From Dictyostelium discoideum (taxonomy: Eukaryota): a stretch of DNA of 64,000 bases. The notes beneath the pieces were generated by a model, which was not told where the DNA came from, ran no database searches, and worked only from the letters and a program-made list of their open reading frames with translations. Below, in pieces: positions 18,106 to 61,143 of the stretch. The position numbers and the translations under genes are program-made. The number at the start of each line of letters is the position of its first letter. Positions within the stretch are counted from its first letter, which is position 1. The stretch lies in assembly GCA_000004695.1 (NCBI GenBank), contig CM000153.2:3040001-3104000 (forward strand). Direction: 5' to 3'.

Positions 18106-20463
18106 TTAATGAGAACAAGTTGCAGCATATTCGCAGCAATCATTGCATAAATCTTTTGGACTTTTTTCAAGTTTAAATGATACACATTTTAGACCTTGTG
18201 ATTGACAATTTAAATCATAACATGATAGACAATTTGTTTTGAGACAAATGGCATTATTTTCAAAATTATAACAACCTTCTCCTTTTCCACATTTTTTATT
18301 ATAGCATTTATCATATGGTAGTGATGATGTTGTTACTCCTGATGTTGAAGACAAAGTTGAGGATAGAGTTGAAGATAAAGTTGTTGCTAATGTTGAAGAT
18401 AAAGTTGATGAAATGGTTGAAATTAGTGTCGAGGAAACATCAGTAGATACAGCTGTCAAAGATATGGTTGAGCCAAATGTTGAAGCTATAGTTGAAGCAA
18501 GGGTAGTTGCTATTGTTGAAGCAATTGTTCCTTCATCAGATACTGGGCTTGTGGATATTGTTGATGCTAATGAAATTGGGATTTCACTAACTGTTTGTGG
18601 TGGTGTTGTTGGTGTTCCTGTTGTTTGCGATGTTGTTGTTGTGGTTGTTGTTGAAGTCAAACCAATAGTTGAACCTATTGTTGAAGCAATTGTTGAGCCC
18701 AAAGTTGAAGCAGTTGTTATATCAATATCACTAGAACTTTCTTGATTACTTGAGTTTTCAATTGAAGAACTACCACAATCAATAATTTCAGAATAAACAC
18801 ATTGTCCATTTGATATATCACATTGTCCAACTATACAAGGGTTAATATGAGTACAATTAACAGGTTTAACTATACAAAGGCCTAGAAGAAAAGGATCACA
18901 CTCTTGAATTTCACATGGGTTTGATGAAATACAAGCTGAACTATCACATGGAATACAATTTGGAATAAAAGTATTTACGCACCCAACAGGAGGATCACAT
19001 TCATCTATTGTGCAGGGATTAGAATCATCACATGAAATATCAGTTGAAACACAACCTTGATAAAGATGACACTCTTGAGAAACACATAAATTTCCAGGAT
19101 ACTCTTCTGTACAATTGAATTCATTATGTTGACAATTAAATTCATCAATACATATACCTTTTTCACAAAAATATTCATCAGTTGGACACTGTGGACTACC
19201 TTCAAAACATCTACATGCTTTTGTTTAATTGAAAAAATTTAATTTATAAATATTTTTGTAAATTACTTGGAAAAGTTTTTTTTTTTTTTTTTTTTTTTTT
19301 TACTACTTACATGAACCATCACCATAACAAACACCACAATCATCAAAATAATCACAATTTAGTGGATACTCTGATTTAATTCTTGAGTTTTTTATTAAAA
19401 AAGAGAGCAGTTTTAAAATAAATAAAATATAATAAAGTAAAAAAAAATAAAAAAAACTTTACATACTCAAAATAATGAATGTTTGGTCTATATTTTCTAT
19501 TACAATTAATGATTGAAGTTTGGATTGGCTCACCACCCCCACCAAAATCTGTTAGTAGAAATCCAACATCTCTGTATTCTACAATTCCAAGATATTCAGA
19601 TACAGGTCTTCCATTAACATAAACGAATAAATCATCAGAGTGACTAATAGAAACAAAGGTTGATTGATGTATTGTGGGGATAATTGTAAAGAAATCAAAA
19701 CGAATACACCATTTATAATTATGATCCAATCCTTCATTACCAAATCCCGCATAGTCAACTTTTAAATTAAAATATTAAATGATAATAGTAAAGAAAAAAA
19801 AAAAAAAAAAAAAAAAAAACTTATTAATATGTTAAAAAATAAAATAAAATAATAATTATTATATACTTACTTGGGAAAAAACTGGGACTGCCAAAATAAT
19901 GGCCATCAAAATACATATTACCATGCCCAGGGTAATTTACCAGAGGATCTTCTTCTGTAATCCATGATATTAAAGTGGTTTGATTATGTATCTAAATTAT
20001 TTTAATGGTTTTAATATAAAAACAATAAAATTATAATATAATGCATAAAAAAAAAAATAAAAAAATAAAATTACCAATTCATAAGTATTTGTATCATCTA
20101 ATGTTGGTTGACTACCTAGTGAATAATCTAAACCCAATCCAAATGGACCCCATACTGGAAAAGTATTGGATTGAAAGGTGAAAGTGTTATCAGGAACTAA
20201 ATTCTTATCAAAGTCTATGTTTCTATCAGATTGATCAAAATACAAAAATTCTACATTTTGTGACAAAACTATTTTTTTATAAAAAAGTATTTATAATTAT
20301 TGATTTAATATATTATTCTTTATTTTGTTTCCTCAATCTAATTTGATTTATTTTTATTTTCATTTTTATTTTTGGAATAAAGAAGAAATTGATATTTACC
20401 ATTTATTACAAATAAAATTTGAACAAATATAATTATGATCAAGTTTTTATTTATTATAACCAT
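18106..20463 (-). CDS. Secreted or cell-surface protein with an N-terminal signal peptide, a PA14-like domain, multiple Cys-rich EGF-like repeats, a Ser/Thr-rich O-glycosylation region and a C-terminal Cys-rich knot. Psi (prespore-inducing factor)-family-like. Six exons.
   Basis: Exon 1 (20463..20400) encodes MVIINKNLIIIIFVQILFVIN. Donors and acceptors read on the minus strand: GTAAAT, GTAATT, GTAAGT, GTAAAG, GTAAGT; acceptors at about 20264, 19991, 19762, 19387, 19217. Middle exons encode ...FTFQSNTFPVWGPFGLGLDYSLGSQPTLDDTNTYEL / IHNQTTLISWITEEDPLVNYPGHGNMYFDGHYFGSPSFFPK / VDYAGFGNEGLDHNYKWCIRFDFF...VYVNGRPVSEYLGIVEYRDVGFLLTDFGGGGEPIQ (PA14-like). The last exon (about 19217..18106) encodes ~20 Cys in CxxxC/EGF-like spacing, STIASTIGSTIG Thr/Ser repeats and ...CNDCCEYAATCSH*. 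Confidence 0.65.
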
Positions 20464-25809: not shown

Positions 25810-26424
25810 TCAAGGATTCAATGGTACAATTGGTTGATGAGATATTTCAGAAGAATTCGATTGTTGGGGACTTGTAGTTCCTAAATTATTGCTATTATTA
25901 TTGCTAGTAGGTAATGGTGGTGATACTACTGGTGGTACAACAGACGAAGCATTAGTTGGTAGGATTGGAGAGGAATTTGGCATTGGTTGATTTGGTGACA
26001 CTCCTCCTGTACCATTGAGATTGGTATTGGTATTTATGATACCACCTTGAGGTATTTGTGTATAACCGGTTAAACCCTCTTGTTTAATGGTTGGTGAACT
26101 ATGAGTTGGTGAAGATCCCATTTGTTGTTGAAGTTGTTGAGCTTGTTGTTGTTGTTGTTGAGCTTGTTGCATTTGTTGGAATTGCATTAATTGTTGTGGT
26201 GTATATTGAGGTTGTTGTTGTTGTTGTTGTTGTTGTGGTTGTTGCATTTGTTGTAATTGAGGTTGTTGTAATTGTTGCTGTTGTAATTGTTGTTGTTGTA
26301 ATTGTTGTTGTTGTAATTGTTGTTGTTGTAATTGTTGTTGTTGTAATTGTTGAACTTGTTGTTGGTGTTGTTGTTGTAAGTGTTGTTGTTGTTGTGGTTG
26401 TTGTTGTTGTTGTTGTTGTTGTGG

Positions 26425-26473
<49 letters not shown>

Positions 26474-26543
26474 GGTTGTTGTTGTTGTGAGTTACCACTA
26501 TTATTTGAAGAGGTAATTTGTTGTTTTATTGGTATATCACCCA

Positions 26544-26578
<35 letters not shown>

Positions 26579-27048
26579 GCTTGTTCACTTCCTGGTGTAT
26601 TTGTAGCCATTTTGAAGTCACATTCTACTCTGGTATCTCTGATTGAAATGATGAATGTAACTTTTTGATATTCATGTATGGCGACGTCTGCAGGATTGTT
26701 TGAATCCTTTTTCTCAACCTTTTTTTTAACCCATTCTTTACCACTTGAAAGTGTTGGAAAACCAGATCTAGCATTAAAAGTAAAGTATAAATGTTGTACC
26801 ATAACTTTTTCATTATTAATAAAGGCTGGACGCTCTTTGGTATAGCTTCTCCAATATCTAAAGGTAGAGAAATGCTCTCTAAACAATTCTACTGGTAAAC
26901 AACCTAACGGTACACCTTTAACTGTTTTTCCAAATCCATTCTCTAAACGATCTTGAAGAATGGTATGTGCCACCTCTAGAAACTCTTGTAATCTAATTTG
27001 TTTATAAAGTGTTGTAAAATAACTTCTATCAATTAATTGATCATCCAT
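25810..27048 (-). CDS. Hypothetical poly-Gln-rich nuclear-type protein with a structured N-terminal domain of about 150 aa followed by more than 150 residues of Q/LQQQQ repeats. No confident family.
   Basis: ORF MDDQLIDRSYFTTLYKQIRLQEFLEVAHTILQDRLENGFGKTVKGVPLGCLPVELFREHF... followed by (CAA/CAG)n and a 15-bp periodic (tgtaattgttgttgt)x6 array at about 26270..26355. Confidence 0.5.
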
Positions 27049-27062
27049 TATTTCTCTCTCTT

Positions 27063-27094
<32 letters not shown>

Positions 27095-27166
27095 TTTTTT
27101 CTTCTTTTTTAATATTTTATATTTCTTTTTTTTTTTTTTTTTTTACTTTTATTAATTATTTAATTG

Positions 27167-42072: not shown

Positions 42073-42931
42073 TTAAAAAGGAATTGATTTACTTTCACTA
42101 ATTAATTCACAAGTATCAGATAATATTGGATCATTTAAAGTTTTTGGAATTGATTCCACTTTAAGTGATTGAGAGAAAGTTCCAATTTCTTTTGGTTTGA
42201 AAATGATTGGGACTTTGGTTGTAGTCTTTGGATTTAATGTTATGGTATGATGATTCAATATGAATGGTGATGGTGATGGTAAACTTAATCTAACATTTAA
42301 AGTTGCATTTGAGGCATTTGATATTGATACTTTGTTTGTTGAAGATTGTCCAATTTGAACAATACCAAATGTTATTTTATTATCATAAAAGAATAAAATT
42401 CCATTTGTATGTTGTTTGGGTTGTTGTTGTTGTGGTGGTTGTTGTTGTTGTTGTTGTTGCTTTCTTTGTTGTTGTGGTGGTGGTTGTTGGTCAGGTTCAA
42501 ATTGATGAATATGGTAATGTCTAACTTCTTCACTCTTTTTTATACCATCTGTAGTTGTAGTAACAGTTGGGTTAAATCTTAATGTATTTTCAAATGTATT
42601 GAATAAATTATTTTCATTATTATTATTATTATTATTTGTATTGTTATAAACTGAAGGTTGAGGTTTTTTTAAAATTGATTTTAAGTTTGTATTATTCGAA
42701 GCTGATGTTGTAGGAGGAATGTTGGTGGTTGCTGCATTAAATGAAGTGGTGTTTGCATTTAAAACCGAATTTGTTGGAAATGGTAAATTGATTGTCGCTT
42801 TAAATGGTGTATTGTTTAAATCCATTTCTGAAAGTTCAAATTCTCTTCCATTAATTGGTGTTGCTGTTGTTGTTGTTGTTGTTGTTGATGTAGTTGTTTT
42901 TTTAGTAGATGGTGGTAAATTACTAAAAATA

Positions 42932-43017
<86 letters not shown>

Positions 43018-46000
43018 ATTATTATTTTGTTTTGTTGGTGGATTACCAATTATTGGAGTTATTTTAATACTTGATAAATTATTAAAGAATAATTCAACAT
43101 CATCATAATCATCTAAATCGAAATTATGATTTTGACTATTTGAATCATTAATTTGTTGAGAATTTTCATTGATAAAAGTTTCTTTAAATTGAATATCTTG
43201 AATTTCTTCTTCTTTAAATTTGAAATCAAATAAGAATTCATCATCAAATGAAACCTCTTTACTTGTTGAATCCATTGAATCAGTTTTAAGATTTTCCAAT
43301 CTATTATGAACTGATCTAATCTTTCTTTGACGTGAAATTTCATCACCAAAATATAATTTAACTTTACCTGGTGATATTGTTGAATTCATTAATGATCCAT
43401 TTAATTGTGATAATAAATTATTGATACTACCGCCACCACTGCTGCTATTTGGATGAATTTCTAAACGGAAATCAACTTGTTCACCAACACCAATTGAAAC
43501 ACGATCTGGTTTAATAGTTGATTTTGAATTTGGATAAAATGAAATAGCTCTAACAAAACCTGAACGTTGACCTGTATTTTTAACTGTAAATTTACAATAA
43601 ACAGATTTACCATCAGTACTTTGCTTATTAACATATAATACAATATTATTATTATTATTGTTGTTTGAACCACTTGTATTATCAATTGAATCTAAATTAC
43701 GAGCAGAAGAAGCAACTTCCATTTTAGCGGAACCACCATAACCAAGAACCGGTATTGAGAATGATAGTTGTTTATTCAATGATGAGAAAACAACTACACT
43801 ACCATGTGGTGATATTGAAAGTGGTGTATAAATTATCTCTACTTCAGTCTTTGAATGTGGACTAATTAATAATTGTTCACCATTACCAATACTAAAGAAT
43901 GAATGACTATTATTACTACTACTACTACCACTATGATCATTTTGTTTAAATGTTGCATTCAAATGTAATGCATGTGGTAATGTACTAGTTAATGTTATAA
44001 GTACACTCTTTGTATCACCTAATTTAACACCACCAAAATTAACCACTTTTCTATTACAATAAAGTGATGGTGGTAAATTATTATTATTATCATCATCATC
44101 GTCATCGTTATGAAAAATAACACTTGAATTATTGATATTATTTAAATTATCTTGATCGTCAGAGATGATTTTAGTTGATGGTAAAAGTTTATTACTATCC
44201 TGATAGTAATTATCTTTACGTATATTATTAAATCTCTTTGACTGATAAGTTGGAGAAGGTGGTGATGATGGCATATATAAAGTTGAATCTAATGGTACGG
44301 TTATACCAATAACATCGATTTTAATCTTTTCCTTTGTTATTGATGGTGTTGAAATTATAATTGCTGCACGTTGTAATTGAATATTATTATTTGGTTGATA
44401 CTTAATTTGTAATGGTATCATTGAATTTGGTTCAACTGAAAATATTGATGGACTAATTGAAAATACATCTGGTTGTGTTGAAATGCATTCAATATCAATT
44501 AATTCATTATTATTATTATTAATTTTATTATAACTATTAAAATTACAATACATTGATAAAGTTTCAATTGGATAGATTTTCTTTCTTTCTTCATATACTA
44601 ATTTAATACCATTCTCTAAAACATAATTTGAAATACTTAATGGTACTCTACTATTATTATCAATATTTTCATAATCTTCATTATCATTATCATCACTACT
44701 ACTACCAATACTACTACTATCATCATTTAGTTTTTCCTTTTTCAATATGAATTTTGGTGTAAATGATTTTGATTTTTCAATTTTTTCAAGTTTTTGTTGT
44801 TGTGATAATAATGTTGATGGTGATTGTGTTGGTGATGGATCAATTATTAATGGTTTTTGTGAGGTTGGTGTTTTAGAATTATTATTGTTATTATCAATAT
44901 TATTATTATTATGATGATTATTAGTAATAGTTGCCGATAATTTAATTAATTTCTTTTGACCAGTTAATTGATCAATAATGGTTGCATTCGCATTATAAAT
45001 TTGTTTTTCTGGTAAATTGAATTTAAGAGAGATTTGATCATTTGATAATTTTTCAAATGAAAATCCTTCACCATTTATTTCATATGTTAATTTTTGACCA
45101 TCTATAAGTTAAAAAAAAATAAATTAAAAAAAGAATTATTAGTATGTAAACATATATATAAATTTTTAATAATAATAAAAATAAAAATATACATACTTTG
45201 AGATTTTAAAGAAAGATTTGAAGTTAAAGTATCATTAGAATTACATTCACCCATATCCCAATTATTATAACTATAAAATAAATCTTCATGATTTAAAATA
45301 TCAGCAGTTGGTGTTGCATTGATTGGGATGGATAGATTGTAAACACCACTTTGTGGTATATATTGAATTCTAAATTCATCTTCAGTCTCACTATCATTTA
45401 AATTCAATGGAACTGTTCCACTACAGGTCAATACTAAATTTGCATAATGTATACCATTTGATTCTGGTTTTGGTAAATTATCAACATTTGGTATATATTC
45501 AACCTTTAAGAATATATGTGATAATGGTTGAATTATAATTATTGGTGGAAATGGTGCCAATTCACCTTGTTTGAGACCATTATTCGATGGTGTATTATTG
45601 TTATTATTGGTTTTATCAGAAACTATTATTCTAAAAGCATCTTTATCTAATCCAAAAATATTAATATTTGATAATGTTACAGGTTTTGAATGTGGATTTG
45701 TTACAATTATATCTCTACTTAAAATCCACTCTAATTCACATTTTCCTAAATCTATTCTCTTTTCAATTACTACCATTGGATATTTAATTATGCCATCGTC
45801 ATAATTTTCTTCATTAATGTCTTCAATGTGTTGTTGTTGTTGTTGCTGTTGTTGGGGTGTTCTTGGACGTTGTTGTTGTTGGTGTTGTGGTGTTTTTGGT
45901 CTATTTGGTTGTTCTTGTTCTTGTTCTTGTTGTTGCATTTTTTGTTGATATTGAGAATTATTTATTAATGAAGATATTAAGAATGAATTATTTTTAATTT

Positions 46001-50736: not shown

Positions 50737-53107
50737 TGGCCCAGTAATTGAAGCCATCAGAATTTCAAATAACCTAATGGATATGGACCAACTAAATAAA
50801 AGACCCACCTTCTCAAGAACGATACACAACACAAACAATAACCTCACAAGAATCTTGGAAAGGAGACTAGACAGAATATACCTTAACAATAGCATAATCA
50901 ACTACAGCCAATTATACTTAAGGAACCTAATCCCCCCAAAAATTAACAACATACCTCTATCAGATCACAACTTCCTATCAACCACCTTCACTCTACCCAA
51001 CATACAGATGAACATGCGCAGATGGAGATTAAAAAAATGAACGAATTAATCAACTATTGTAATGATAAAAGAATAAACGGAATAATTACGCTATATGATT
51101 TCGAAAAAGCTTTTGACTCGATCTCACACGGTTCAATACTCAGATCACTACAACACATCAACATTCCAACCAATATAATCAACCTGATAATGAATCTACT
51201 CACCAAATCTGAAGCAAGAATTGAAATTAATGGTAGAACTACTATACCCTTTGAGATCAAAAGAGGAGTTAAACAAGGAGATCCACTATCACCCACCCTG
51301 TTCGTCCTTGTAATAGAGGCTTTAGCTAGAAAAATTTTACAAGATGACCGAATTACTGGCCTTCCTCTAAACAACAGCAACCACAGAGAGAAATTCCAAA
51401 GCTTTGCAGACGACTCGGCTTCAATGGTCCCAGACTCTCAACAACTTGAATTAGTACTACAACACTTCAATTCATTTTGCAAAGCCACTTCCTCAAAACT
51501 AAACATCGACAAATCTTCATCAATTCTTATAGGCAACCCAGACATAACCAACCAAAGAATTCCAATATCTACAAATCTAGAAAGATACTTGGGATACTTC
51601 TTCACAGGCAAAGGGATAACAAGAAAAATGCCAGAAATATTAAACACAATAAGATCATCCTTAGTACTATGGAAAACCACTGACTCAACAATCAAAACCA
51701 AAACCAACATCCTCAAAGCATTCGCACTCTCTAAGTTAACCTACTATTCATATGTAGAGAACTTTAAGGAAGAGGAATTAAACCAAATCAATAAATTAGT
51801 CGAATGGTTTTTATCGGCACCAAACAACAAAAATGCTAGTGGATTTCAAGTTATTAATTTAATGAGAACCAAAAGAGCAAGATACCCACTAAAAGTAGGG
51901 GGCTGGAACATTTGGAATATAGAATTGAGACAACTGGCGCAGAAACTTTGGATCATAAACCAGTTCATCCTAGCACTAGAAACCAAACAAACAAACTCAT
52001 CTCATCACAAAAGCTGGGAATATCAGATCCAAAAAAACAAATTCACATCCAGATACCTAAAAGAAAACTTAGACGAATGGAACAAAATAAGAATAAAAAA
52101 AGCAATCTTCAACAATAATCTCACATCCATAAAAAACGAAAATGGACAACCACATTCACTGGCAGAATGGTATACCACAATTCAAGACCAAAATCCAACC
52201 ATCCCTAAAACGGAATTCCAATCATCTCTAAACTTAAGAGGCTACAGCTATAATCAACTCTTCAACAACATACTGAAGATAAAAGACCCTAAAACAAGAG
52301 ACACAATGTTTAGATTCCATGCCAGATGCCTTCCAATAAACTACCTTCACAACAAACAATGCCCACTCTGCAAAGAAGATATGAGCAAAGACCCATACGG
52401 TCACCTGTTCTTCTCATGCAAGAAAACAAAACAATTCATAAAAATAAATAAACTCAAAAATTTCATCTATATTACCACAGGCAAAGGTAAAAACTGGCAC
52501 CATACAAGAATTAGGCAAAATAACAATTTCATTAATAGAATAACTCCAAAATTATCACCGACAGCCAAAAAAGATCAAGAAGTGAATGCAGATTACGCCA
52601 ACCACAGATTCCACAAAGAATACTTTGAATGGAACTATAAAGCAATAGACTATGATCTAACCAGATCATTCGCATATAGAAACCTAATGGCCCTTATCCT
52701 CCACAATATTTGGATTTGGATTTGCAATCAAATATACAGTGAAGATCCTTTAACAGATGAATCACTATCATACAGCTCCCTTCTAAAGAAATGGCACAAA
52801 TTGGCCACTCTAGAATACATCAAAAAAGCAAAAGATCTGAAAAACTTATCAGCAAAAGACCATAATAACTTCAAAGACCCTAAGATCCTTCTCACTTCAA
52901 CGATCAAGCTAAGAAAAACAACAGCTAATTACTATTGTATTCCAGAATCATCTCTCCCAAATATTATATCTTTTGTTCAATTCATATGATTAAAATAACC
53001 CTTCAGCTTAAATGATAAGCCTTTAAATAAATATTAAATAAAACTCGTATTAACACAGATGGACATATATCAATCTTGTTAATCCAATATTAAAAAAAAA
53101 AAAAAAA
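50737..53107 (+). mobile_element. Retrotransposon copy C, plus orientation. It has an APE fragment (to ~51020), then an internal deletion of about 930 bp removing the N-terminal part of the RT, then the RT core, the C-terminal Cys-His domain, a ~110-bp 3' tail and oligo(A) at 53088..53107. The ORF 51022..52989 reads through (CAA) where copies A and B have TAA.
   Basis: ...MNMRRWRLKK is directly fused to MNELINYCNDKR... (compare copy A, about 34257 to 35189). The long ORF ends ...NIISFVQFI*. The 3' tail is identical to the reverse complement of copy B's tail. Confidence 0.75.
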
Positions 53108-54411: not shown

Positions 54412-55908
54412 TTAAAGTTTTTTTTTATTTTCAATTATTATTTGATCAATTTTATCAATAATTGAATGAATTGCTAAAGTACCAGGAGTATTTGGATGAT
54501 CACAAATTGAACAAACCCCATTTTCAGCTGATTTACCTAAATTTGTATCTATTGGAATTTTGCCAAGGAATGGAATATTAAATTGTTCTGCCAACTTTTT
54601 ACCACCATCAGATTTGAAAATTTCTGTTACTTCATCACAACATGGACATACAAAACCAGATAAATTTTCAATGATACCTATGATTGGTACATTTAATTGA
54701 CGACATAATGAAATCTCTTTTTTTACAGTATCACAAGAGAGATCTTGTGGAGTGGTGACCAATACTGCACCATCGGGATTACAAGATTTTAGAGAATTGA
54801 TAATGGAGAGATGTTCATCACTTGTGCCTGGTGGCGTATCGATGATGAGATAATCTTGTTTACCCCAAAATGTATCTTTAAGGAATCTACGAATCATTGT
54901 GGTCTTTCTTGGACCTTTCCAAATTACAGGTGCATCAGGGGTACCCAATAAAAAACCAACAGACATGACTTTAATATCATGATTTGCTTGTTGCACCTTT
55001 GGTGGAATCCAACCATACTCTGAATTTATAATTTGCAATTTATCAACACCCATTAGCTTTGGAATTGACGGACCGCAAATATCAACATCTAATACAGATA
55101 CTTTGGTGGTGTTATTATTTCTCTTTGAAAAACCATATGATAACAAGGATGAAACTGTTGATTTACCAACACCACCCTTTGATGACATTACCAATATCTT
55201 ATTTTTAATAACTTTCATTCTAATTTCAATACTCTTTTTATCAGGATTATCAGCTTGTGATTTACATGCATTTTGACCTGGACAACTTGAACAAATTGCT
55301 TCTGATCCTGCTAATGGTGTATCTGAAGGACATCCAACTGATGCTTTAATAATATTACCTTCAATTATTGTTGCACCACTTGATAAAATATTTGAATCAT
55401 CTTTTATTTGTTTATTTGTTGTTGTTGTTGTTGTCGTTGATTCTGATTTACAACATGATGATGATCCACTTTTTTCACTACCTCCACAACAACCTGATTT
55501 TTGTTTTTCTTCAACTTTATTATTATTATTACTACTACAACATGAAGATGATGATTTATTTTCATTTCCTCCACAACAACTTGATTTTTGTTTTTCTTCA
55601 AATTTATTATTATTACCACTACAACATGATGATGATGATTTACTTTCACCACCACTACAACAACTTGATTTTTGTTTTTCTTCAACTTTATTACTACTAC
55701 TACAACATGATGATGATGATGATGATTTATTTTCACCAGCACTGCAACAAGTGGATTTTGGCTTTAATGATGATGTTATTGTTTGAGAATCATCAGAATC
55801 TTGTTGTATTATAATTGAAGTTGTTTTTTTTGGTGGTTGAACAACAACTTTTTTAAAATTATTGCCAATATCTTCTAAATTATCACTACCATTTCCACAA
55901 CCTGACAT
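54412..55908 (-). CDS. nubp1: Nbp35/NUBP1-type cytosolic Fe-S cluster assembly P-loop ATPase (Mrp/NBP35 family) carrying a tandem Cys-Cys-containing repeat insertion of about 110 aa in the N-terminal region.
   Basis: P-loop ...MSSKGGVGKSTVSSLL..., family motifs ...DVDICGPSIPKLMG..., C-terminal CPxC (GFVCPCCDEVTEIF), ferredoxin-like N-terminal Cys cluster ...AICSSCPGQNACKS.... Upstream of it are four or more repeats of (EEKQKSSCC-G-E-KSSSSCCS-NNNK). Confidence 0.85.
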   Translation of the reverse strand: MSGCGNGSDNLEDIGNNFKKVVVQPPKKTTSIIIQQDSDDSQTITSSLKPKSTCCSAGENKSSSSSSCCSSSNKVEEKQKSSCCSGGESKSSSSCCSGNNNKFEEKQKSSCCGGNENKSSSSCCSSNNNNKVEEKQKSGCCGGSEKSGSSSCCKSESTTTTTTTNKQIKDDSNILSSGATIIEGNIIKASVGCPSDTPLAGSEAICSSCPGQNACKSQADNPDKKSIEIRMKVIKNKILVMSSKGGVGKSTVSSLLSYGFSKRNNNTTKVSVLDVDICGPSIPKLMGVDKLQIINSEYGWIPPKVQQANHDIKVMSVGFLLGTPDAPVIWKGPRKTTMIRRFLKDTFWGKQDYLIIDTPPGTSDEHLSIINSLKSCNPDGAVLVTTPQDLSCDTVKKEISLCRQLNVPIIGIIENLSGFVCPCCDEVTEIFKSDGGKKLAEQFNIPFLGKIPIDTNLGKSAENGVCSICDHPNTPGTLAIHSIIDKIDQIIIENKKKL

Positions 55909-56147: not shown

Positions 56148-57483
<1,336 letters not shown>

Positions 57484-59237: not shown

Positions 59238-61004
<1,767 letters not shown>

Positions 61005-61143
61005 TGTTTGAAAAAAAAAAAAAAAAATGAAAAAAATAAAAAAAAAAATGAAACAAAAAAAAAAAAAAATGAAAAACAAAAAAAAAAAAAAAAAAAAAAC
61101 CTGGATAAATTTTTGGAAGTAATTATTTAAAATGTTTTAATTT

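What the first reader, a model, noticed from the sequence alone, without database searches (positions are those of the whole stretch)
55470..55790. Nbp35/NUBP1 carries four or more tandem Cys-Cys-containing repeats ahead of its ferredoxin-like Cys cluster
Units of the form EEKQKSSCC-G-E-KSSSSCCS-NNNK repeat four to five times, giving at least 9 extra CC pairs N-terminal to the canonical CX(n)CX2CX5C Fe-S site (…AICSSCPGQNACKS). Vicinal Cys pairs in a flexible Ser-rich linker on an Fe-S scaffold protein could act as an additional cluster or metal reservoir or a redox sensor. Nbp35 homologs in other lineages lack such an insert as far as I know.
Basis: partly seen in the sequence, partly recalled or inferred. 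Interest (0 to 1): 0.55.

Follow-up and report, generated by a model that had tools for sequence, protein, structure and literature searches.

The report
Cysteine-pair repeat tail on iron-sulfur ATPase
A Dictyostelium relative of the iron-sulfur cluster scaffold Nbp35 carries a real, conserved, floppy N-terminal tail with eight evenly spaced cysteine pairs, which most likely binds metal or iron-sulfur clusters, though nobody has tested this.

Summary
The gene is a single 498-aa ORF on the minus strand (54412-55908), identical to D. discoideum AX4 "nucleotide binding protein 1-like protein". It has four tandem 23-29-aa units (55438-55764), each with two Cys-Cys pairs. That makes 8 pairs, not 9 or more. 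They lie 39 residues ahead of a CX12CX2CX5C site and a Mrp/NBP35 ATPase domain.

The array is coding, predicted disordered, and far from random (0 of 200,000 shuffles reach 8 pairs). All eight pairs align across five group-4 Dictyostelium genomes, with only two single-Cys losses. A second isolate has five units.

- **Not unique.** Cys-rich extensions occur in every dictyostelid ortholog sampled, with multi-pair arrays also in Polysphondylium and Tieghemostelium, in the distant amoebozoan Vermistella, and more weakly in two environmental sequences.
- **Not canonical NUBP1.** The host belongs to a separate paralog clade that coexists with true NUBP1.

My best reading (about 0.45) is a thiolate-rich metal or Fe-S binding arm, like the HMA4 di-Cys tail and a bacterial ArsP permease with SSCCGG[D/E] repeats. 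The rivals are S-acylation, a redox switch and near-neutral low complexity. I rate it a new variant of a known kind, of moderate interest.

The parts
54412..55908 (-). Complete single-exon CDS, 498 aa: D. discoideum AX4 'nucleotide binding protein 1-like protein' (type-B NBP35-like ATPase)
   Evidence: ORF. 100% identical to P0001. Collinear with three independent Logan contigs, with one synonymous SNP at 55435. GC 31%, against 14-18% in the flanks.
55765..55908 (-). N-terminal leader, aa 1-48 (MSGCGNGSDNLEDIGNNFKK...), carrying the only unpaired upstream Cys (C4). Strongly conserved within group-4 Dictyostelium.
   Evidence: Alignment. dN 0.008-0.035 (computed on aa 1-50), lower than in the array. 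Related N-termini are MSCCGG, MGKQCCGG, MSGCGKSQCCGGGGCG and MSCCQKK.
55678..55764 (-). Di-Cys unit 1, aa 49-77: KPKSTCCSAGENKSSSSSSCCSSSNKVEE (CC at aa 54-55 and 68-69)
55594..55677 (-). Di-Cys unit 2, aa 78-105: KQKSSCCSGGESKSSSSCCSGNNNKFEE (CC at aa 83-84 and 95-96)
55507..55593 (-). Di-Cys unit 3, aa 106-134: KQKSSCCGGNENKSSSSCCSSNNNNKVEE (CC at aa 111-112 and 123-124)
   Evidence: 75 of 87 nt identical to unit 2.
55438..55506 (-). Di-Cys unit 4 (shortened), aa 135-157: KQKSGCCGGSEKSGSSSCCKSES (CC at aa 140-141 and 152-153). It ends in the SCCKS motif shared with Polysphondylium, Tieghemostelium and Vermistella.
55417..55437 (-). Poly-Thr run (aa 158-164) separating the array from the linker. 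Its length varies between species.
55264..55332 (-). Ferredoxin-like 4-Cys site: C193-X12-C206-X2-C209-X5-C215 (GCPSDTPLAGSEAICSSCPGQNAC), the type-B variant of the Nbp35 N-terminal [4Fe-4S] motif
   Evidence: C193, C206, C209 and C215 are invariant in a 40-sequence alignment.
54448..55209 (-). Mrp/NBP35 P-loop ATPase domain (Pfam PF10609 'ParA/NUBPL'), aa 234-487. Includes the deviant Walker A KGGVGKS (aa 244-250, window 55159-55179).
   Evidence: Pfam E 9.3e-87. PDB CtCfd1 hit at 1.1e-64. pLDDT mostly 80-98. dN/dS 0.04-0.06.
54637..54648 (-). C-terminal CPCC (C421-P-C-C424), the CPXC motif that ligates the bridging cluster in Nbp35/Cfd1-type proteins
   Evidence: C421, P422 and C424 are invariant.

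Best explanation
The array is a translated, intrinsically disordered, thiolate-rich arm fused to the N-terminus of a type-B NBP35-like P-loop ATPase.

**Shown**
- There are four tandem 23-29-aa units, each with two Cys-Cys pairs. They arose by in-frame duplication of an 84-87-nt unit and still change in copy number.
- The pairs themselves are kept by purifying selection, while the spacers drift.
- The arm sits 39 residues upstream of a ferredoxin-like CX12CX2CX5C site. The same protein also carries the CPXC bridging-cluster motif.

**Inferred**
- The pairs, helped by the nearby Glu in the recurring CCGG-x-E context, chelate metal ions or Fe-S clusters or their precursors. The tail would then act as a high-capacity capture and holding arm that feeds or buffers the two fixed cluster sites of the ATPase.
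- This parallels the di-Cys C-terminal tail of plant HMA4, which binds about 11 Zn at nanomolar affinity.
- From my own knowledge, it also parallels the Cys/His-rich tails of metallochaperone NTPases and accessory proteins such as HypB, UreE and CooJ.
- Capacity would scale with the number of pairs. That would explain why pair count and density are conserved but not the exact sequence.
For: **The array is coding**
- Single ORF.
- Five genomes keep the reading frame despite length changes from 494 to 532 aa.
- GC is 29%, like coding sequence, against 10-18% for an intron and the flanks.
- dN/dS is below 1.
- Vermistella's version comes from a transcriptome.

**Cys pairing is non-random**
- 0 of 200,000 shuffles for D. 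discoideum.
- 0-4 of 100,000 shuffles for Tieghemostelium, Vermistella and Polysphondylium, whose pairs are not recent DNA duplicates.
- No CCC anywhere.

**Selection acts on the pairs**
- All 8 pairs align across 5 group-4 genomes, with 73 of 76 Cys cells retained.
- Only 45 of 76 ungapped non-Cys columns are invariant.
- Array dN/dS is 0.2-0.7, against 0.05 for the ATPase domain.

**Position is conserved**
The last CC lies 36-47 residues before the first ferredoxin-site Cys in Dictyostelium, Polysphondylium, Tieghemostelium, Vermistella and the environmental protein P0089.

**The tail is disordered**
pLDDT is below 50 for residues 1-182.

**Metal-binding analogues**
- HMA4 di-Cys motifs give about 11 nanomolar Zn sites. 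These are lost on CC to AA mutation, a nearby Glu raises affinity, and 11 versus 13 motifs are functionally equivalent (PMC6255694).
- A bacterial ArsP_1 permease (P0125) has eight SSCCGGDEQETQ repeats next to CSCGCGQDCACGDHHDH. To my knowledge bacteria lack enzymatic Cys palmitoylation of cytosolic proteins, which points to ligand binding there.

**Context**
The host protein's own function is thiolate-ligated cluster handling.
Against: - There is no biochemical or structural evidence of any kind. Metal or cluster binding rests on analogy only.
- Two adjacent Cys are geometrically awkward as ligands to one ion. Sites would have to be built from two or more pairs, or from a pair plus Glu.
- One Cys of a pair has been lost twice (D. 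citrinum pair 5, D. dimigraforme pair 6), so no single pair is essential.
- Acytostelium, Heterostelium and Cavenderia manage with one CC plus a few single Cys. Type-B orthologs in Balamuthia, Capsaspora and animals have no tail.
- The resemblance to the bacterial repeat is compositional (E 6.7e-4) and comes from a single protein.
- I could not scan the D. discoideum proteome for other CC arrays. The two database searches with the repeat had poor sensitivity: one did not even recover the query's own protein.
Confidence: 0.45

Rival explanations
1. The Cys pairs are S-acylation (palmitoylation) sites. They would tether this NBP35-like ATPase to a membrane, for example the mitochondrial outer membrane or an endomembrane. 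This resembles cysteine-string protein and the N-terminal MLCC or MGSCCSC motifs of GAP-43 and Vac8.
For: - Every extended ortholog starts with Cys within the first 3-10 residues: MSGCG, MSCCGG, MGKQCCGG, MTGCGGC, MSCCQKK. These look like N-terminal dual-acylation motifs (my own knowledge).
- Lys often flanks the pairs (KSSCC, CCKS).
- Other lineages do anchor Nbp35 to mitochondria. Apicomplexan Nbp35 has an N-terminal extension, and T. gondii Nbp35 localises to the mitochondrion (PMC7980591; PMC12674569).
Against: - The pairs sit in very hydrophilic, acidic, Ser-rich spacers (EEKQK..., CCGGxE), and 16-20 acyl chains on one tail would be extreme.
- The nearly identical SSCCGG[D/E]E repeat occurs in a bacterial permease, where to my knowledge DHHC-type acylation does not exist.
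- There is no hydrophobic segment in aa 1-232; the highest Kyte-Doolittle 19-aa window is 0.99.
- No acylation predictor was available, and no localisation data turned up in the literature.
Confidence: 0.2
2. The array is mostly a by-product of Dictyostelium's tendency to expand simple coding repeats. A short ancestral Cys motif was copied along with its unit by unequal crossing-over, and the extra copies are tolerated rather than used.
For: - The units are 76-86% identical at DNA level and TRF detects them as a tandem array.
- Copy number differs between two isolates.
- The array's dN/dS (0.2-0.7) is about ten times that of the ATPase domain.
- Single Cys have been lost twice.
- Neighbouring genes carry long poly-Asn and RD repeats.
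- Several dictyostelids have only one CC.
Against: - The four-unit layout and all eight pairs are positionally conserved across five genomes with dS up to 0.6.
- Cys columns are more conserved than non-Cys columns.
- Polysphondylium, Tieghemostelium and Vermistella have multi-pair arrays with unrelated spacers and strongly non-random pairing.
- There are never any CCC runs.
- No genuine ORF elsewhere in the 64-kb window has such an array.
- Cys is not a typical Dictyostelium homopolymer residue (my own knowledge).
Confidence: 0.15
3. The pairs act as a redox switch or thiol buffer. Reversible disulfides, vicinal or between pairs, would sense oxidative stress and gate cluster assembly or release on the adjacent sites.
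For: - Many closely spaced thiols lie on a flexible tail next to an oxygen-sensitive cluster site.
- Di-Cys motifs can form cyclo-cystine loops or cross-links, as discussed for galaxins (PMC2726143).
Against: - Nothing computed here bears specifically on redox behaviour.
- Known thiol switches use one or a few Cys in defined structures, not 16 in a disordered array (my own knowledge).
- The CCGG-x-E context resembles metal-chelating motifs more closely.
Confidence: 0.1

Closest known systems
Canonical Nbp35 / NUBP1 (cytosolic Fe-S assembly scaffold)
   Same: - Mrp/NBP35 P-loop ATPase domain with deviant Walker A.
- N-terminal four-Cys ferredoxin-like motif.
- C-terminal CPXC motif.
   Different: - It falls in a separate clade. 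Type B has 100% NJ bootstrap support without an outgroup, and the split of type A plus Cfd1 against type B has 90% support with an archaeal outgroup.
- The motif is GCPSxT...CX12C rather than CPGTxS...CX13C.
- It coexists with a true NUBP1 in other dictyostelids (P0156, P0162).
- It has about 190 residues of disordered, Cys-pair-rich extension, against a median of 14 residues before the motif.
Plant HMA4/HMA2 cytosolic C-terminal di-Cys extension
   Same: - Many CC pairs scattered in a Ser/Glu/Lys-rich cytosolic tail attached to a metal-handling ATPase.
- Pair number varies between close species (11 versus 13) without functional change.
- A nearby Glu acts as co-ligand.
- The pairs account for about 7 of about 11 nanomolar Zn sites (PMC6255694).
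   Different: - The host is a P1B-type membrane pump and the tail is C-terminal.
- The HMA4 tail also has a His stretch and many single Cys.
- There is no sequence homology.
- The metal is Zn/Cd, whereas here it is unknown.
Galaxin-like repeats (Pfam PF24748), coral skeletal matrix proteins
   Same: - Tandem units of about 30 aa, each with two di-Cys motifs, in a Ser-rich sequence (PMC2726143).
- The Pfam model aligns over the whole array, aa 53-163.
   Different: - The score is below the gathering threshold in AX4 (20.6 versus 28 bits) and only just above it in D. dimigraforme (30 bits).
- Galaxins are secreted, have a signal peptide, and are thought to be structural and disulfide-linked.
- This tail has no signal peptide and is fused to a cytosolic ATPase.
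- The match reflects CC periodicity, not demonstrable homology.
Bacterial ArsP_1-family permease P0125 (MAG Rhodospirillaceae bacterium MC1) with an N-terminal SSCCGGDEQETQ x8 array
   Same: - Nearly the same core motif, [ST]-S-C-C-G-G-x-E, repeated in tandem.
- The array lies in a predicted cytosolic N-terminal tail of a protein from a family linked to metal(loid) handling.
   Different: - 12-aa units with one pair each.
- The host is a membrane permease and the organism is bacterial.
- It is a single example found at E 6.7e-4, so the resemblance is convergent or compositional rather than homologous.
Cys/His-rich metal-storage tails of metallochaperones (HypB, UreE, CooJ, SlyD) and metallothioneins; this comparison rests on my own knowledge
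   Same: - Disordered ligand-rich tails of variable length attached to, or working with, SIMIBI-class NTPases that deliver metal centres.
- Ligand number varies widely between species.
   Different: - Those tails are mostly His-rich or use CxxC/CxC patterns.
- No Pfam metallothionein family matched the array even at E <= 10.
- Nothing here shows metal storage.

Membership tests
Mrp/NBP35 P-loop ATPases (Pfam PF10609) | Full-length match to the family model above its gathering score | tested here: met
   PF10609 at E 9.3e-87, 291 bits against a cut-off of 27.1, aa 234-487. Best PDB match is CtCfd1 6g2g at E 1.1e-64.
Mrp/NBP35 P-loop ATPases (Pfam PF10609) | Deviant Walker A GKGGVGKS and a C-terminal CPXC cluster-bridging motif | tested here: met
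   K244-S250 are invariant. C421, P422 and C424 are invariant in a 40-sequence alignment. The first residue is Ser (SKGGVGKS) in group-4 Dictyostelium.
Nbp35 / NUBP1 orthologous group | N-terminal ferredoxin-like CX13CX2CX5C motif | tested here: inconclusive
   Four Cys are present and invariant, but the spacing is CX12CX2CX5C in a GCPSxT context. 96 sequences share this form. The 67 sequences with CX13 in a CPGTxS context include fungal Nbp35 and vertebrate NUBP1.
Nbp35 / NUBP1 orthologous group | Groups phylogenetically with bona fide Nbp35/NUBP1 | tested here: not met
   In an NJ tree of 242 core columns, the type-B clade containing the window protein has 100% bootstrap support, apart from fungal, vertebrate and dictyostelid NUBP1. 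Cavenderia and Acytostelium have both forms. Only distance methods were used.
Cfd1 / NUBP2 | Lacks the N-terminal four-Cys motif | tested here: not met
   C193, C206, C209 and C215 are present and invariant.
Cfd1 / NUBP2 | Groups with bona fide Cfd1 | tested here: not met
   With an archaeal outgroup, CtCfd1 joins type A in 90% of NJ bootstraps and joins type B in none. Only one Cfd1 sequence was available, taken from a PDB alignment.
Galaxin-like repeats (PF24748) | Score above the Pfam gathering threshold | tested here: not met
   AX4 N-domain scores 20.6 bits against a cut-off of 28 (E 4.4e-4). D. dimigraforme scores 30 bits. Tieghemostelium scores 9 bits and Vermistella has no hit.
Galaxin-like repeats (PF24748) | Secreted protein with an N-terminal signal peptide | tested here: not met
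   There is no hydrophobic segment in aa 1-232 (highest KD 19-aa window 0.99). The N-terminus is MSGCGNGSDNLED, and the tail is fused to a cytosolic-type ATPase.
HMA4-type di-Cys metal-binding tail (a functional class, not a sequence family) | Multiple CC pairs in a disordered cytosolic tail of a metal-handling protein | tested here: met
   8 pairs spaced 10-15 residues apart. pLDDT below 50. The host is an Fe-S scaffold-type ATPase.
HMA4-type di-Cys metal-binding tail (a functional class, not a sequence family) | High-affinity binding of several metal ions that depends on the CC pairs | not testable with these tools
   This needs recombinant protein with metal analysis, as done for HMA4c (PMC6255694).
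Metallothioneins | Small free-standing protein with CxC/CxxC/CC clusters that matches an MT family model | tested here: not met
   No MT family appeared among Pfam hits at E <= 10. The array is 14.7% Cys (16 of 109 residues), contains only CC motifs, and is part of a 498-aa protein.
Dictyostelium Cys-rich repeat (Dicty_CTDC, PF00526) | Match to the 24-aa Dictyostelium Cys repeat model | tested here: not met
   No hit at E <= 10 for the N-domain. The model does detect an unrelated ORF in the same window, 18109-19224(-).
S-acylated Cys-cluster anchors (CSP, GAP-43, Vac8 type) | Thioester-linked fatty acids on the Cys, and membrane association | not testable with these tools
   Only sequence resemblance of the extreme N-termini (MSCCGG, MGKQCCGG) was seen. 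No predictor or localisation data were available.

The most novel reading that the evidence does not exclude
Amoebozoa have fitted a little-noticed third clade of eukaryotic NBP35-like ATPases (type B, distinct from both NUBP1 and NUBP2/Cfd1) with an expandable di-Cys 'antenna'. This antenna would hold several Fe-S clusters or cluster precursors, or buffer Zn/Cu/Cd like a tethered metallothionein. Scaffold capacity could then be tuned simply by repeat number. That would be a new way to couple metal or cluster storage directly to a cluster-assembly ATPase.
Probability: 0.2. Interest if true: 0.7.

Novelty: new variant of a known kind. Interest (0 to 1): 0.5.

Why it matters
How the cytosolic Fe-S scaffold receives iron and sulfur, and how many clusters it can hold, is still unsettled. 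A natural variant with 16-20 extra thiols right next to the fixed cluster site offers three things if the tail binds clusters or metal:
- A ready-made experimental handle, using truncation, CC-to-SS mutants and unit-number variants in a genetically tractable amoeba.
- Evidence that storage tails, known from Ni and Zn systems, also exist in Fe-S biogenesis.
- A function for a paralog clade (type B) that automated annotation currently labels inconsistently as NUBP1-like or NUBP2-like in many invertebrates and protists.

If the tail turns out to be an acylated anchor, it would be a second, independent case of tethering the cytosolic Fe-S assembly scaffold to a membrane, after apicomplexans.

Tried and rejected
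**Searches that gave little or nothing**
- Searching 5.8 billion proteins with the repeat segment alone gave no hit at E <= 0.001, not even the protein itself. This is probably a composition filter or correction. It therefore says nothing about whether unrelated proteins share the repeat.
- The exhaustive representative search with aa 1-235 returned only 6 hits.
  - One (P0124, Caenorhabditis nigoni) matches only the EEK-type spacer and has no Cys pairs, so I rejected it as spurious.
  - One (P0125) is the bacterial ArsP permease, which I kept as an analogue only.
- Literature searches for Nbp35 or NUBP1 in Dictyostelium or Amoebozoa, and for Cys-rich N-extensions, found no description of this tail.

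**Evidence I could not use as hoped**
- The Logan contigs of 1606-1611 nt from several sequencing runs are collinear with the genome. They end in homopolymer runs and I could not learn whether the runs are RNA-seq. They do not prove the repeats are in mRNA.
- PDB holds only Cfd1 and prokaryotic Mrp relatives, and none covers the tail.
- The second poly-Cys frame in the window (26354-26665 +) is an off-frame reading of a simple repeat inside another gene. It is not a second CC-array protein.

**Ideas rejected**
- An intron origin for the array.
- Membership of the galaxin, metallothionein or Dicty_CTDC families.
- The idea that type B equals Cfd1/NUBP2, on the limited evidence.
Full report
**1. 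What is in the sequence**

The finding lies inside one uninterrupted 498-codon ORF on the minus strand, 54412..55908. Its product is 100% identical to the D. discoideum AX4 protein named "nucleotide binding protein 1-like protein".

Pfam places a Mrp/NBP35 ATPase domain (PF10609, E 9.3e-87) at aa 234-487. The best solved relative is Chaetomium Cfd1 (6g2g, E 1.1e-64).

Upstream of that domain lies a four-Cys site, C193-X12-C206-X2-C209-X5-C215. Near the C-terminus is CPCC (aa 421-424).

The first 190 residues have no strong Pfam match.

**2. The repeat**

Tandem Repeats Finder reports an 84/87-nt period, 3.3-3.4 copies, 83-85% matches and score 387-392 at 55449-55736.

Read as protein, there are four units:

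| Unit | Residues | Window coordinates |
|---|---|---|
| 1 | aa 49-77 | 55678-55764 |
| 2 | aa 78-105 | 55594-55677 |
| 3 | aa 106-134 | 55507-55593 |
| 4 (shortened) | aa 135-157 | 55438-55506 |

Each unit has two Cys-Cys pairs in alternating contexts, K-S-S-CC-G-G-x-E and S-S-S-CC-S-S-N. That gives 8 pairs, spaced 10-15 residues apart.

All 16 Cys of aa 51-160 are paired. None of 200,000 shuffles reached 8 pairs, and the analytic estimate is about 2e-8.

The two overlapping ORFs in other reading frames, one on each strand, are low-complexity read-throughs of the same repeat.

**3. Coding, not intronic**

- The array has 29% GC, like the rest of the CDS (31%). The flanks have 14-18% and a neighbouring probable intron has 10%.
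- Four further genomes were compared: a second isolate labelled D. discoideum, D. citrinum, D. dimigraforme and D. firmibasis. Each encodes the gene as one ORF of 494-532 aa, so every length change is in frame.
- dN/dS across the array is 0.2-0.7.
- Three independently assembled contigs from public sequencing runs are collinear with the window, apart from one synonymous SNP at 55435. I could not establish whether those runs are RNA.
- The Vermistella homolog with a CC-rich tail comes from a transcriptome assembly.

**4. Conservation and dynamics**

In a five-genome alignment the four units are positionally orthologous and all eight pairs line up. One Cys of a pair has been lost twice, in D. 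citrinum pair 5 and D. dimigraforme pair 6.

The second D. discoideum-labelled isolate has an extra unit, giving 10 pairs. That isolate differs by dS 0.07 in the ATPase domain, so it is a fairly divergent lineage.

Cys cells are retained in 73 of 76 cases, while only 45 of 76 ungapped non-Cys columns are invariant. The ATPase domain evolves at dN/dS of about 0.05.

Beyond group 4 the picture is as follows:

| Lineage | Cys content of the N-extension |
|---|---|
| Polysphondylium violaceum | 4 pairs |
| A related environmental protein (P0007) | 4 pairs |
| Tieghemostelium lacteum | 6 pairs |
| Acytostelium and Heterostelium | MSGCGKSQCCGGGGCG |
| Cavenderia | one CC plus CSSGGCSSGSC |
| Vermistella antarctica (Discosea) | 5 pairs |
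| Two environmental proteins (P0089, P0013) | 2 pairs and 1 pair |

Several features recur:
- The motif S-CC-K-S occurs in the last D. discoideum unit, Polysphondylium, Tieghemostelium and Vermistella.
- A Cys cluster follows directly after the start Met (MSGCG, MSCCGG, MGKQCCGG, MSCCQKK).
- The last pair lies 36-47 residues from the ferredoxin-like site.

Pairing is strongly non-random even where spacers are unrelated: 0-4 of 100,000 shuffles for Polysphondylium, Tieghemostelium and Vermistella. No CCC occurs.

Typical family members have a median of only 14 residues before the motif.

**5. The host is a paralog, not canonical NUBP1**

The 178 collected sequences split by motif:
- 96 have GCPSxT..AG..C-x2-CPG with CX12 spacing ("type B"). 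This group includes the window protein.
- 67 have CPGTxS..AGK..C-x2-CPN with CX13 spacing ("type A"). This group holds fungal Nbp35, vertebrate NUBP1, and the NUBP1 proteins of Cavenderia, Acytostelium and Planoprotostelium.

In neighbour-joining trees of 242 core columns, the type-B clade has 100% bootstrap support. With an archaeal Mrp outgroup, the one available Cfd1 joins type A in 90% of replicates and never joins type B.

Four species have both types: Cavenderia, Acytostelium, the crinoid Antedon and the hemichordate Ptychodera.

Type B also occurs in Balamuthia, Capsaspora, sponges, cnidarians, molluscs, crustaceans and echinoderms. There it is about 310 aa, has no tail, and is variously auto-named NUBP1-like or NUBP2-like.

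Caveats:
- Only distance methods were used.
- Only one Cfd1 sequence was available.

**6. Physical nature of the tail**

AlphaFold2 with a 40-sequence alignment gives pLDDT below 50 and no secondary structure for residues 1-182. The ATPase core is confident, mostly 80-98.

The array is 33% Ser, 15% Cys, 15% Lys, 10% Glu, 10% Asn and 9% Gly. There is no hydrophobic segment in aa 1-232.

**7. What it resembles**

- **Galaxin repeats.** Pfam's Galaxin_repeat model describes coral matrix proteins built of roughly 30-aa units with two di-Cys motifs each (PMC2726143). It aligns across the whole array. The score is below threshold in AX4 (20.6 versus 28 bits) and just above it in D. dimigraforme (30 bits). 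Galaxins are secreted and this protein is not, so I treat the match as shared periodicity.
- **HMA4 tail.** Plant HMA4's cytosolic tail has 11-13 di-Cys motifs. These provide most of its roughly 11 nanomolar Zn sites, are needed in vivo, use a nearby Glu as co-ligand, and tolerate changes in motif number (PMC6255694).
- **A bacterial permease.** The exhaustive search with aa 1-235 found an ArsP_1-family permease from a Rhodospirillaceae MAG. Its N-terminus reads CSCGCGQDCACGDHHDH followed by eight SSCCGGDEQETQ repeats. Its core, S-S-C-C-G-G-x-E, is the same as in the Dictyostelium units.
- **No match.** No metallothionein or Dicty_CTDC model matched. Dicty_CTDC does detect another ORF in the window.

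**8. Most likely mechanism**

Shown:
- The tail is a translated, disordered arm.
- Its vicinal Cys pairs are maintained by selection.
- Unit number changes by in-frame duplication.
- It is attached next to the fixed cluster-binding sites of an NBP35-like ATPase.

Inferred, at confidence of about 0.45: the pairs chelate metal ions or Fe-S clusters or their precursors, so the tail acts as a capture and holding arm for the scaffold. The inference rests on four points:
- What the host protein does.
- The CCGG-x-E context.
- The HMA4 precedent.
- The bacterial permease, where to my knowledge acylation is not an option.

Rivals:
- **S-acylated membrane anchor (0.2).** The MSCC-type N-termini and the precedent of mitochondrion-associated Nbp35 in apicomplexans (PMC7980591) argue for it. 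The acidic hydrophilic context argues against.
- **Near-neutral repeat expansion (0.15).** The relaxed dN/dS and copy-number change fit. The deep conservation of pairing does not.
- **Redox switch (0.1).** No specific evidence either way.

**9. Limits**

- There is no biochemical evidence.
- I could not scan a Dictyostelium proteome for other CC arrays. Within the 64-kb window no genuine ORF has one.
- The two database searches with the repeat had low sensitivity. The first missed even the query's own protein.
- The literature held here does not mention the tail.

**10. Verdict**

It is best described as a new variant of a known kind, namely a ligand-rich disordered tail on a metal-centre assembly NTPase. 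Interest is moderate (0.5). It would be higher if cluster or metal binding is demonstrated.

Noticed in passing
window 54412-55908 (-); proteins P0012/P0156, P0010/P0162, P0030/P0091, P0046/P0096: Eukaryotic NBP35-like proteins with the N-terminal 4-Cys motif fall into two well-separated clades. Type A has CX13 spacing and includes canonical NUBP1/Nbp35. Type B has CX12 spacing in a GCPSxT context. Both coexist in some dictyostelids, a crinoid and a hemichordate. Type-B members in many invertebrates are auto-annotated inconsistently as NUBP1-like or NUBP2-like. The single available Cfd1 groups with type A, not type B.
   Followed up: partly
L005 3001-4710 / L010 2001-3707 (protein P0125, MAG Rhodospirillaceae bacterium MC1, NQOV01000007.1): A bacterial ArsP_1-family permease has an N-terminal tail reading CSCGCGQDCACGDHHDH followed by eight tandem SSCCGGDEQETQ repeats. 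This is an independent di-Cys array on a likely metal(loid) transporter.
   Followed up: partly
window 50947-52986 (+): A 680-aa stop-free frame with a reverse-transcriptase domain (RVT_1, E 1.5e-21) lies about 1.4 kb downstream of the gene. It is probably a retrotransposon. The same neighbour is called in another D. discoideum assembly (L001).
   Followed up: partly
window 26354-26665 (+): A 104-aa frame with 53 Cys and 25 CC. It is an off-frame reading of a simple trinucleotide repeat inside the 432-aa ORF 25813-27108 (-) (weak PAT1 match). It is not a genuine poly-Cys protein.
   Followed up: yes
window 18109-19224 (-): A Cys-rich ORF (37 Cys in 372 aa) matches the Dictyostelium-specific Cys repeat Dicty_CTDC. 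This is a different kind of Cys repeat from the CC array.
   Followed up: partly
window 56148-56987 (+): The divergently oriented neighbour gene is rich in Arg-Asp/Asp-Arg dipeptide repeats. It contains an uninterrupted AAT run of about 40 codons (poly-Asn, about 56680-56790). A probable short AT-rich intron starts near 56927 (GTATGT).
   Followed up: no
window 42076-45108 (-) and 59241-61136 (-): Neighbouring ORFs match Cep192/SPD-2 domains (E 8e-32) and the tRNA-splicing endonuclease Sen54 N-terminal domain (E 3.5e-9). These are ordinary housekeeping context with no link to Fe-S metabolism.
   Followed up: no
L006 1501-3099 (GCA_054859355.1, labelled D. discoideum): This isolate's ortholog has five units (10 CC pairs). 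It differs from AX4 by dS of about 0.07 in the ATPase domain, which is high for one species. It may represent a divergent lineage rather than ordinary within-species polymorphism.
   Followed up: partly
window 55435: There is a single synonymous difference (G in the window, A in three Logan contigs, on the coding strand) within the poly-Thr/linker region. The protein is otherwise identical across four AX4-like sources.
   Followed up: yes
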